In this document: positions 1 through 233 of the stretch, in pieces
How the letters are laid out: each line of letters begins with the position of its first letter
How positions within the stretch are numbered: the stretch's first letter is position 1
Assembly: GCF_003334305.1 (NCBI RefSeq)
Contig: NZ_QOWS01000088.1
Source: Escherichia coli
GTDB lineage: Bacteria > Pseudomonadota > Gammaproteobacteria > Enterobacterales > Enterobacteriaceae
Length of the DNA stretch: 233 nt
Strand: one strand, 5' to 3'
Notes under the pieces: generated by a model
What the model saw: the letters and a program-made list of their open reading frames with translations, nothing else
What the model was told of the DNA's origin: nothing
Database searches by the model: none
Made by a program: the position numbers and the translations under genes

Positions 1-12
1 CCGGATATCCGG
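1..12. repeat. Perfect 12-bp palindrome CCGGATATCCGG (central GATATC flanked by CCGG on each side)
   Basis: Read directly: positions 1-12 are identical to their own reverse complement. It abuts the window edge, so any extension of the symmetry upstream cannot be assessed. Within frame +1 it encodes P-D-I-R. Confidence 0.9.
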
Positions 13-233
13 TTAAGCCCGCATCTTTACCTGGCGACCAACAGCGCACAGGGGCCGTGGTGGATACTGGGGTGGTCAGAGCGGGTGCCGGGTGCTGAGG
101 ACGTACTGCCAGCGCCGCTGCCGCCGTACCGGGTGCTTACCGGGCTGGCAGACCGTTTCGGGCGGACGCTGACTTTCCACCGGGCAGCTAAGGGTGACGT
201 GGCGGGCGCGGTGACGGGGGTGACGGACGGCGC
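1..233 (+). CDS. Internal fragment of a protein-coding gene (frame +1, partial at both ends); hypothetical protein of unknown function
   Basis: Frame +1 (codons at 1-3, 4-6, ...) has no stop codon across all 77 complete codons, whereas frames +2 (TAA 14-16, TGA 170-172), +3 (TGA 96-98, TAA 189-191) and all three reverse frames contain stops. Hand-counted positional GC is about 73% (pos 1), 57% (pos 2), 77% (pos 3), the GC3>GC1>GC2 pattern expected of a real gene, with G enriched at codon position 1 (31 of 77). Amino-acid composition is varied (W, Y, F, H, K, D, E present), unlike the Ser/Pro/Thr/Ala-rich antisense translation. No ATG occurs anywhere on the + strand and no terminal stop is present, so both gene ends lie outside the window. 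At this GC content an open 77-codon frame arises by chance about one time in five, so confidence is moderate. Confidence 0.55.
82..95 (+). repeat. Perfect tandem direct repeat of the heptamer CGGGTGC (2 copies)
   Basis: Read directly: 82-88 CGGGTGC and 89-95 CGGGTGC. The overlapping 9-mer CCGGGTGCT (88-96) recurs at 129-137 in a different reading-frame phase, so the repetition is at DNA level rather than protein level. Confidence 0.85.
193..231 (+). repeat. Short-period coding repeat: GGTGACG motif three times (193-199, 210-216, 219-225) encoding G-x-x-x-G-x-x-x-G-x-x-x-G
   Basis: Read directly: GGTGACG occurs at 193-199, 210-216 and 219-225; 211-219 (GTGACGGGG) and 220-228 (GTGACGGAC) form an imperfect in-frame 9-bp tandem (7 of 9 identical). 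In frame +1, glycine falls at codons 65, 69, 73 and 77 (193-195, 205-207, 217-219, 229-231), giving GDVAGAVTGVTDG with Gly every fourth residue. The pattern runs to the end of the window. Confidence 0.5.

What the first reader, a model, noticed from the sequence alone, without database searches (positions are those of the whole stretch)
109..129. Proline-rich segment P-A-P-L-P-P-Y, a probable linker or domain boundary
Four prolines in six residues, encoded by CCA GCG CCG CTG CCG CCG, separate the Trp-rich N-terminal part from the more charged C-terminal part (RVLTGLADRFGRTLTFHRAAKG). Short polyproline stretches in bacterial proteins usually form inter-domain linkers or exposed loops. This hints that the window spans a boundary between two domains or modules.
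Basis: inference. Interest (0 to 1): 0.2.

Follow-up and report, generated by a model that had tools for sequence, protein, structure and literature searches.

The report
Proline-rich loop in Rhs toxin shell
The proline-rich stretch is a variable loop joining two neighbouring strands in the shell of a well-known E. coli Rhs toxin protein, not a linker between domains, so it is ordinary.

Summary
Window nt 109-129 in frame +1 read CCA GCG CCG CTG CCG CCG TAC, which is P-A-P-L-P-P-Y.

The window is an internal piece (aa 164-240) of a 1417-aa "RHS element core protein". It is 100% identical to E. coli strain A7, where the gene lies downstream of vgrG at the rhsE position. PAPLPPY is aa 200-206.

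An AlphaFold2 model of aa 41-1240 (pLDDT 86) superposes on the cryo-EM structure of Tse5 (TM 0.80/0.88). It places the motif at the end of an 18-residue coil (aa 188-205). That coil joins strand WWILG to strand YRVLTGLA, the first DxxGR (YD-type) hairpin of the shell.

Tse5 lacks 13 residues at exactly this point. Distant homologues vary in length and sequence here, and the flanks are conserved. Escherichia alleles stay proline-rich but place the prolines differently (PAPLPP, PPEPPA, PPPPPA).

So "variable loop" is supported and "inter-domain linker or domain boundary" is not. In solved homologues the plug/barrel boundary lies near aa 124. The truly disordered insert is aa ~258-290.

In passing: the window spans a clean recombination junction between two Rhs lineages (nt 157-173), seen in only 1 of 5426 genomes. 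Interest is low.

The parts
1..233 (+). Internal fragment (frame +1, aa 164-240) of a 1417-aa RHS element core protein (WP_240770959.1 in E. coli strain A7)
   Evidence: 100% match to NZ_CP028767.1 at 2341256-2341488 inside the annotated CDS. The window peptide hits NCBIfam NF041261 RHS_core at profile positions 164-240 with E=1e-44.
58..72 (+). Codons for WWILG (aa 183-187), a conserved beta-strand preceding the loop
   Evidence: AF2 strand at model 143-147, which is protein 183-187. W184 is near-invariant, present in 18 of 19 ungapped diverse rows. It aligns with YLHFQ of Tse5.
73..126 (+). Codons for the 18-residue coil WSERVPGAEDVLPAPLPP (aa 188-205), a variable loop corresponding to an expanded hairpin turn
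   Evidence: AF2 DSSP gives coil at model 148-165. Block pLDDT is 64 for aa 191-200 and 81 for aa 201-210. Gaps and insertions occur in distant homologues. Tse5 has a 13-residue deletion here.
109..129 (+). The reported P-A-P-L-P-P-Y segment (aa 200-206). [quoted passage not shown]
   Evidence: The allelic forms PAPLPP, PPEPPA, PPPPPA and PPELPA are listed.
127..183 (+). First degenerate YD-type beta-hairpin: strand YRVLTGLA (aa 206-213), DRFGR turn (aa 214-218, nt 151-165), strand TLTFHR (aa 219-224)
   Evidence: AF2 strands at model 166-173 and 179-184. G217 is invariant in 30 sequences. These columns are gap-free. The DxxGR turn is the motif described for Tse5 YD hairpins (PMC10684867). The Pfam RHS_repeat model does not detect this hairpin.
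157..173 (+). Crossover interval of a recombination junction between two Rhs core lineages (codons F216-T221, TTCGGGCGGACGCTGAC)
   Evidence: In the three-way alignment, every informative site up to nt 156 matches the O157 rhsD-locus type. Every informative site from nt 174 onward matches the vgrG-linked type of strain 600468. Supporting searches are.
211..233 (+). Start of the second degenerate YD-type hairpin (strand VTGVT, aa 234-238; DGAGR turn begins at aa 239 and continues beyond the window)
   Evidence: AF2 strand at model 194-198 with the turn at 199-203. D239, G242 and R243 are invariant.

Best explanation
The segment is part of the shell of an Rhs (rearrangement hot spot) polymorphic toxin of the type VI secretion system. 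Residues 188-205 (WSERVPGAEDVLPAPLPP) form an enlarged loop. It connects beta-strand WWILG to the first strand (YRVLTGLA) of the first YD-type hairpin, in the opening turns of the beta-cocoon just after the DUF6531 plug.

The proline run LPAPLPP most likely acts as a stiff, extended spacer that cannot take part in sheet hydrogen bonding. It leads the chain back into the sheet. What is preserved is proline richness and approximate length, not the exact sequence.

Shown: the identity of the gene, the position in the protein, the strand-coil-strand prediction, the indel and sequence variability, and the conserved flanks. Inferred: that the loop is solvent-exposed, that the prolines adopt an extended polyproline-II-like conformation, and that the loop has no function beyond architecture.
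For: The gene is identified by a 100% DNA match and its annotation. The full protein scores 2675.8 bits against NCBIfam RHS_core, above the 2000-bit cut-off.

Pfam finds DUF6531 at aa 46-123, RHS repeats from aa 325 and the RHS core at aa 1154-1189. DPIGL is at aa 1231.

The AF2 model has pLDDT 86 and pTM 0.77. It gives strand 183-187, coil 188-205 and strand 206-213, then hairpins whose turns fall exactly on DRFGR and DGAGR. The model superposes on Tse5 8cp6 (TM 0.80/0.88) and on RhsA 7q97 as a single cocoon.

In the profile alignment to Tse5, the region reads YLHFQRC-(13-residue gap)-PDGIWRLQASFGRAGY, so the hairpin turn is far shorter in the solved structure. Tse5 residues 125-1091 are described as barrel and 48-124 as plug (PMC10684867).

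In the conservation profile, entropy is about 2 bits or more with gaps at 190-205. The flanks are gap-free and contain invariant G217, D239, G242 and R243. The enterobacterial alleles PAPLPP, PPEPPA and PPPPPA keep the number of prolines but not their positions.
Against: I could not obtain coordinates for the model. Solvent exposure and any contacts of the loop with the plug or with VgrG were therefore not measured.

Block pLDDT of 64-81 means the loop conformation itself is only moderately confident. The alignment had only 30 sequences.

Retention of proline richness across all enterobacterial paralogues could reflect a specific binding function rather than pure architecture. No experimental structure of an E. 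coli Rhs core was found in the PDB searches.
Confidence: 0.75

Rival explanations
1. Inter-domain linker: the proline stretch is a flexible tether between an N-terminal Trp-rich domain and a separate, charged C-terminal domain.
For: Length varies at this point among homologues. Pfam annotates nothing between aa 124 and 324. Upstream of the loop the predicted structure is irregular, with short helices and strands at aa 156-187, while downstream it is regular hairpins. Jackson et al. [quoted passage not shown]
Against: The model is one continuous cocoon that matches Tse5 and RhsA over its full length. The residues flanking the loop align to adjacent parts of the Tse5 barrel, separated there by a far shorter connection lacking these 13 residues. 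The experimentally defined plug/barrel boundary is near aa 124-129, about 75 residues upstream. The downstream 'charged' part consists of YD hairpins, not a new domain. The loop is not predicted to be disordered, since pLDDT stays above 50.
Confidence: 0.07
2. Functional recognition or hinge element: the lineage-variable proline-rich loop near the plug end of the cocoon is a contact site for VgrG, an adaptor or a target-cell factor. Alternatively, it is a hinge that lets the plug-side cap open for toxin release.
For: By homology it lies in the first turns of the barrel next to the plug, which is the end that faces PAAR/VgrG. Proline richness is retained in nearly all enterobacterial alleles, while the sequence differs between Rhs lineages. 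The region aa 124-330 is clade-restricted: only 146 of 1.84 billion representative proteins match it at E<=0.001.
Against: There is no direct evidence for any binding partner. Tse5 and many distant homologues function or exist without the loop. In strain A7, an rhsD-locus-type N-terminal part including this loop sits behind a vgrG, spliced onto a core of the type linked to vgrG in strain 600468. This does not suggest strict loop-VgrG matching. Published models place toxin release at the seal peptide and plug, not at the barrel loops (PMC8765631).
Confidence: 0.13
3. Compositional accident: a chance run of CCN codons in very G+C-rich DNA, with no selective meaning.
For: The window is 69% G+C. 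Shuffling gives a run of at least 4 prolines in 6 residues in 3-21% of trials, depending on the background used.
Against: Several independent allelic forms in Escherichia, Shigella, Salmonella and Enterobacter all keep at least 4 prolines in this short stretch (one allele keeps 3) although their positions differ. This argues for selection on composition.
Confidence: 0.05

Closest known systems
E. coli Rhs element core proteins (RhsA-E of K-12 and their paralogues; NCBIfam NF041261 'RHS element core protein')
   Same: The full protein matches the equivalog model end to end (aa 1-1257 to profile 1-1261; 2675.8 bits against a 2000-bit cut-off). Window nt 1-165 are 100% identical to Rhs cores in many E. 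coli genomes, and nt 166-233 are 100% identical to Rhs cores in another set. The architecture and the context (vgrG upstream, small dsORF downstream) are the same.
   Different: This particular gene is a chimera of two core lineages. It was found in only one of 5426 complete genomes.
Tse5 of Pseudomonas aeruginosa (PDB 8cp6; PMC10684867)
   Same: It is the best sequence match in the PDB (E=4.6e-122 for the single sequence, 4.6e-259 for the profile) and the best structural match (TM 0.80/0.88). It has the same DUF6531 plug, the same PVNPxLGxK start, the same SxSExLWLxRGG motif and the same DxxGR hairpins.
   Different: Tse5 has a far shorter connection (...QRC-PDG...) where the E. coli protein has the 18-residue proline-rich loop. 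It also lacks the aa 258-286 insert. Overall identity is 31%.
RhsA of Pseudomonas protegens (PDB 7q97; PMC8765631)
   Same: It has the same cocoon, sealed by an N-terminal plug (cork) and a C-terminal aspartyl-protease plug. The plug region aligns to query aa 41-165.
   Different: RhsA carries a long prePAAR/TMD/PAAR N-terminus. The interval between the plug and the first well-aligned YD repeats is much shorter, about 56 aa against about 144 aa.
Classical proline-rich inter-domain linkers of bacterial proteins (for example the TonB Pro-rich spacer; from general knowledge, not tested here)
   Same: Short runs rich in proline, conserved in composition rather than in sequence, and variable in length.
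   Different: Those linkers join independently folding domains and are long and extended. Here the run is 6-7 residues at the end of a loop between two neighbouring strands of one domain.

Membership tests
RHS element core protein (NCBIfam NF041261, equivalog) | Whole-protein score above the curated cut-off, with end-to-end coverage of the model | tested here: met
   2675.8 bits against a 2000-bit cut-off; aa 1-1257 align to profile 1-1261. The window alone maps to profile positions 164-240.
RHS element core protein (NCBIfam NF041261, equivalog) | Multiple YD/RHS repeats forming the shell | tested here: met
   At least 11 Pfam RHS_repeat hits at E<=0.001 between aa 325 and 763. TIGR01643 YD_repeat_2x scores 170 bits.
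RHS element core protein (NCBIfam NF041261, equivalog) | RHS-associated core domain ending in the DPxGL aspartyl-autoprotease motif, followed by a variable C-terminal tip | tested here: met
   PF03527 at aa 1154-1189. TIGR03696 at aa 1180-1257. DPIGL at aa 1231. The C-terminal tip has no close family match, only a weak Peptidase_M91 hit.
T6SS Rhs effector with cocoon fold (Tse5/RhsA type) | N-terminal DUF6531 plug preceding the barrel | tested here: met
   PF20148 at aa 46-123, E=2.9e-18. It aligns to the Tse5 plug, residues 48-124.
T6SS Rhs effector with cocoon fold (Tse5/RhsA type) | Closed beta-cocoon tertiary structure | tested here: met
   This is a prediction only. AF2 gives pLDDT 86. 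Foldseek gives TM 0.80/0.88 to 8cp6_B and 0.76/0.87 to 7q97_A.
T6SS Rhs effector with cocoon fold (Tse5/RhsA type) | Genetic linkage to vgrG and a downstream immunity-type small ORF | tested here: met
   Annotated vgrG ends 66 nt upstream. 'RHS element protein dsORF-h1' starts 11 nt downstream. Immunity function was not tested.
T6SS Rhs effector with cocoon fold (Tse5/RhsA type) | Autoproteolysis at both ends, T6SS-dependent export and toxicity | not testable with these tools
   Requires experiments. Only the sequence motifs (N47-P48 equivalent to Tse5 K47-P48; DPIGL) are present.
Inter-domain proline-rich linker | Flanking segments belong to two separately folding domains | tested here: not met
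   Both flanks are strands of the same predicted sheet. Both align to the Tse5 barrel, separated there by a far shorter connection lacking these 13 residues. The plug/barrel boundary is near aa 124.
Inter-domain proline-rich linker | Length and sequence variability among homologues at this point | tested here: met
   Gaps in 6-8 of 20 rows at positions 190-199, insertions after position 205, and a spacer of 9-29 aa. This feature is shared with ordinary surface loops.
Inter-domain proline-rich linker | Predicted disorder or flexibility | tested here: inconclusive
   Block pLDDT is 64 (aa 191-200) and 81 (aa 201-210), which is lowered but not disordered. The truly low-confidence stretch is aa 269-280, with pLDDT below 50.
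Canonical RHS/YD repeat (Pfam PF05593), for aa 206-251 | Match to the repeat HMM | tested here: not met
   No PF05593 hit before aa 325, even at E<=10.
Canonical RHS/YD repeat (Pfam PF05593), for aa 206-251 | Beta-hairpin with a DxxGR turn | tested here: met
   DRFGR (aa 214-218) and DGAGR (aa 239-243) sit exactly in the predicted hairpin turns. G217, D239, G242 and R243 are invariant. The motif is as described for Tse5. These hairpins work like YD repeats but are too degenerate to be filed as members by the HMM.

The most novel reading that the evidence does not exclude
The lineage-variable proline-rich loop lies in the first turn of the cocoon next to the plug. It could be a specificity element that contacts VgrG or an adaptor, or a hinge used when the plug end opens. 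The recombination junction 30 nt downstream would then mark the natural exchange boundary of an N-terminal 'delivery module' (aa 1-216) that Rhs genes swap as a unit.
Probability: 0.08. Interest if true: 0.35.

Novelty: already known. Interest (0 to 1): 0.1.

Why it matters
It matters little. The window is a fragment of one of the best-known repeated gene families of E. coli, and the flagged motif is an ordinary variable loop of the Rhs shell.

Two points are of modest use. First, the Pfam-unannotated stretch between DUF6531 and the first detected RHS repeat (aa 124-324) is already shell. It contains two degenerate DxxGR hairpins that HMMs miss, so it should not be read as a separate domain. 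Second, the gene in strain A7 is a clean chimera of two Rhs core lineages, with the crossover inside the window. This is a textbook example of why these loci were named rearrangement hot spots. If the loop turned out to determine VgrG or adaptor pairing, it would help explain how Rhs paralogues are sorted onto different spikes. Nothing here shows that.

Tried and rejected
- **Direct searches with the 77-aa window peptide.** Pfam gave no hit even at E<=10. The PDB gave only chance-level hits, best E=0.018 to an antibody domain. The region is too clade-specific for these libraries and needed the full-length protein or a profile.
- **RNA reading.** No Rfam match at E<=1 on either strand.
- **DNA repeats in the window.** Only a 12-nt two-copy direct repeat and weak inverted repeats were found, judged to be chance.
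- **Chi site as the cause of the recombination junction.** No exact GCTGGTGG was found. One 1-mismatch site at nt 38-45 is at chance expectation.
- **Other reading frames.** Frames +2, +3, -2 and -3 contain stops. Frame -1 has one stop and looks like the usual mirror ORF of G+C-rich coding DNA.
- **First two large protein searches.** They returned only fragments, and the returned hits never exceeded about 1.75 times the query length. Full-length homologues came from the representative search and the profile search.
- **Exact protein in other assemblies.** It was found only in strain A7, so an assembly artefact at the junction cannot be excluded.

Full report
**1. The observation**

The 233-nt window is 69% G+C and is open in frame +1 from end to end. 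The other frames carry stops, except frame -1, which has one. Nt 109-129 read CCA GCG CCG CTG CCG CCG TAC, which is P-A-P-L-P-P-Y, exactly as reported. GPWWILGW lies upstream and RVLTGLADRFGRTLTFHRAAKG downstream.

By composition alone the run is only mildly unusual. A six-residue window with at least four prolines appears in 3% of shuffles of the 77-aa peptide, 21% of shuffles of the proline-rich N-terminal 330 aa, and 9% of shuffles of the whole protein. The real protein has exactly one such window.

**2. What the window is**

The DNA is 100% identical to E. coli strain A7 (NZ_CP028767.1, 2341256-2341488). It lies inside a 1417-aa CDS annotated "RHS element core protein". That CDS sits between a vgrG gene and "RHS element protein dsORF-h1", in the yncH...pptA interval, which is the rhsE position. 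The window encodes aa 164-240, and PAPLPPY is aa 200-206.

The full protein passes the curated NCBIfam equivalog RHS_core (2675.8 bits against a cut-off of 2000, end to end). It also carries the YD repeats and the Rhs-associated core domain. Pfam places DUF6531 at aa 46-123, RHS repeats from aa 325 onward and the RHS core at aa 1154-1189. Nothing is annotated between aa 124 and 324. DPIGL is at aa 1231.

**3. Where the segment sits in the fold**

The closest solved relatives are Tse5 (8cp6) and RhsA (7q97). Their papers define an N-terminal plug (Tse5 residues 48-124; RhsA cork 305-386) that corresponds to DUF6531. The spiralling beta-barrel begins right after it. The query's aa 48-169 align to Tse5 residues 48-165, and its aa 294-371 align to Tse5 235-315. 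The window therefore falls in the first turns of the barrel, not in the plug.

I built a 30-sequence alignment from full-length homologues of 29-91% identity and predicted aa 41-1240 with AlphaFold2. Mean pLDDT was 86 and pTM 0.77. The model superposes on Tse5 (TM 0.80/0.88), RhsA and other T6SS Rhs cocoons over its whole length.

Around the finding, DSSP on the model gives the following (protein numbering is model numbering plus 40):
- strand 183-187 (WWILG)
- coil 188-205 (WSERVPGAEDVLPAPLPP), with block pLDDT 64 for aa 191-200 and 81 for aa 201-210
- strand 206-213 (YRVLTGLA)
- turn 214-218 (DRFGR)
- strand 219-224
- strand 234-238
- turn 239-243 (DGAGR)
- strand 244-251
- helix 252-266
- a segment with pLDDT below 50 at aa 269-280

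A profile built from the alignment aligns continuously to Tse5. At this point Tse5 reads YLHFQRC-(13-residue gap)-PDGIWRLQASFGRAGY. The equivalent strands in the solved structure are thus joined by a far shorter connection. The E. coli proline-rich segment is the tail of an enlarged version of that turn.

**4. Homologue variation**

The stretch aa 124-330 is clade-restricted. Only 146 of 1.84 billion representative proteins match it at E<=0.001, and most of these are enterobacterial fragments. This agrees with the "clade-specific N-terminal domain" of Jackson et al. 2009 (PMC2935791).

In alignments of the distant full-length relatives, three motifs are conserved: GPWW(I/V)(L/F)G, L.G..DRFGR and V.DG.GR.(F/Y).L. 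The spacer between the first two ranges from 9 to 29 residues and loses its prolines.

Over 20 diverse rows, positions 190-199 are gapped in 6-8 sequences and positions 202-205 in 2-4. Sixteen residues in total are inserted after position 205. Positions 206-257 are essentially gap-free, with invariant G217, D239, G242 and R243.

Within Escherichia, Shigella, Salmonella and Enterobacter, the segment occurs as LPAPLPPY, LPPEPPAY, LPPPPPAY or PPELPAY. Nearly all alleles keep at least four prolines, but their positions differ. One allele carries a tandem duplication, LPPPPPAYRVLPPPPPAYRV.

A much larger Escherichia-specific insertion lies at aa 258-286 and is absent from 17-19 of the 20 diverse rows for most of its length. 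It coincides with the helix and the low-confidence Ser/Ala/Pro-rich stretch. That is the genuinely linker-like region, and it lies outside the window.

**5. Interpretation**

The best-supported reading is an enlarged, variable loop within the Rhs beta-cocoon. Its proline run acts as a stiff spacer leading into the first DxxGR hairpin.

They work like YD repeats, with DxxGR turns in the predicted hairpin turns. They are too divergent for Pfam's RHS_repeat model.

A role in VgrG or adaptor contact, or as a hinge, is therefore not excluded. It has no positive evidence, and Tse5 and many homologues lack the loop.

**6. Noticed in passing: a recombination junction**

The complete 233 nt occur at 100% identity in only one of 5426 complete E. 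coli genomes, and the next best match is 90.1%. Yet nt 1-165 are 100% identical to Rhs cores in many genomes, with 972 records at 99% or more. Nt 166-233 are 100% identical to a different set, with 211 records at 99% or more.

I aligned the A7 gene with an O157:H7 rhsD-locus (ybbP-adjacent) core and with a vgrG-linked core of strain 600468. Over gene nt 301-660, the A7 gene shows 0-1 mismatches per 60 nt to the O157 type, against 8-27 to the other type. The two types differ most in gene nt 361-660 (11-27 mismatches per 60 nt) and only slightly in nt 181-300. From gene nt 661 the pattern reverses: over nt 661-780 there are no mismatches to the 600468 type, against 14-22 to the O157 type.

Within the inspected interval (gene nt 430-800), the last O157-type informative site is window nt 156 and the first 600468-type site is nt 174. 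The crossover therefore lies in the 17 nt TTCGGGCGGACGCTGAC, which encode F-G-R-T-L-T of the first DxxGR turn. No Chi site is nearby.

The exact protein is on record only for this assembly. A misassembly between paralogues cannot be excluded without the reads. Recombination among Rhs cores is what the family is named for and is documented (PMC2935791), so this is not novel in kind.

**7. Verdict**

The feature is an ordinary part of a known protein family, so the novelty is "already known" and the interest is low.

Noticed in passing
window 157-173 (L001 9157-9173; gene nt 646-662, aa 216-221): There is a clean recombination junction between two Rhs core lineages. Upstream, the gene matches the rhsD-locus type of O157:H7 PV15-279. 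Downstream, it matches the vgrG-linked type of strain 600468. The whole window is found at 100% in only 1 of 5426 E. coli genomes, and the exact protein only in that assembly, so a real chimera and a misassembly cannot yet be told apart.
   Followed up: yes
L001 9283-9369 (aa 258-286 of the Rhs protein, downstream of the window): An Escherichia-specific Ser/Ala/Pro-rich insertion (…FRKQRATSLSSPAGPRSASSSSAFPDTL…) is absent from 17-19 of 20 diverse homologues for most of its length. It is predicted as a helix followed by a segment with pLDDT below 50. [quoted passage not shown]
   Followed up: partly
window 127-233 (aa 206-240, continuing to aa 251): Two beta-hairpins have invariant DxxGR turns (DRFGR, DGAGR) and behave like YD repeats. 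Pfam RHS_repeat does not detect them, and its first hit is at aa 325. The 'unannotated' gap after DUF6531 is therefore already shell.
   Followed up: partly
protein P0009 (E. coli fragment), at the position equivalent to window 106-135: One allele carries a tandem duplication of the proline-rich unit, LPPPPPAYRVLPPPPPAYRV. The loop therefore tolerates a 10-residue expansion.
   Followed up: no
L001 12229-12762 (aa 1240-1417, the C-terminal tip) and L001 12777-13226 (dsORF-h1): The variable toxin tip contains an HEFAH motif and gives only a weak Pfam Peptidase_M91 hit (E=0.0023). It may be a zinc-metallopeptidase-type toxin. The 149-aa downstream ORF is the presumed immunity gene.
   Followed up: partly
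L001 8650-8655 (aa 47-48, N-P in GNPVNPLLGAKVLPGE): The sequence around the experimentally mapped N-terminal autocleavage site of Tse5 (K47|P48, PVNPMLGSK) is conserved. This Rhs protein may therefore also shed a 47-residue PAAR-like N-terminal peptide.
   Followed up: no
L001 13487-14260: A disrupted ISAs1-family transposase (the H-repeat type element classically associated with Rhs loci) lies just downstream of the Rhs/dsORF pair.
   Followed up: no
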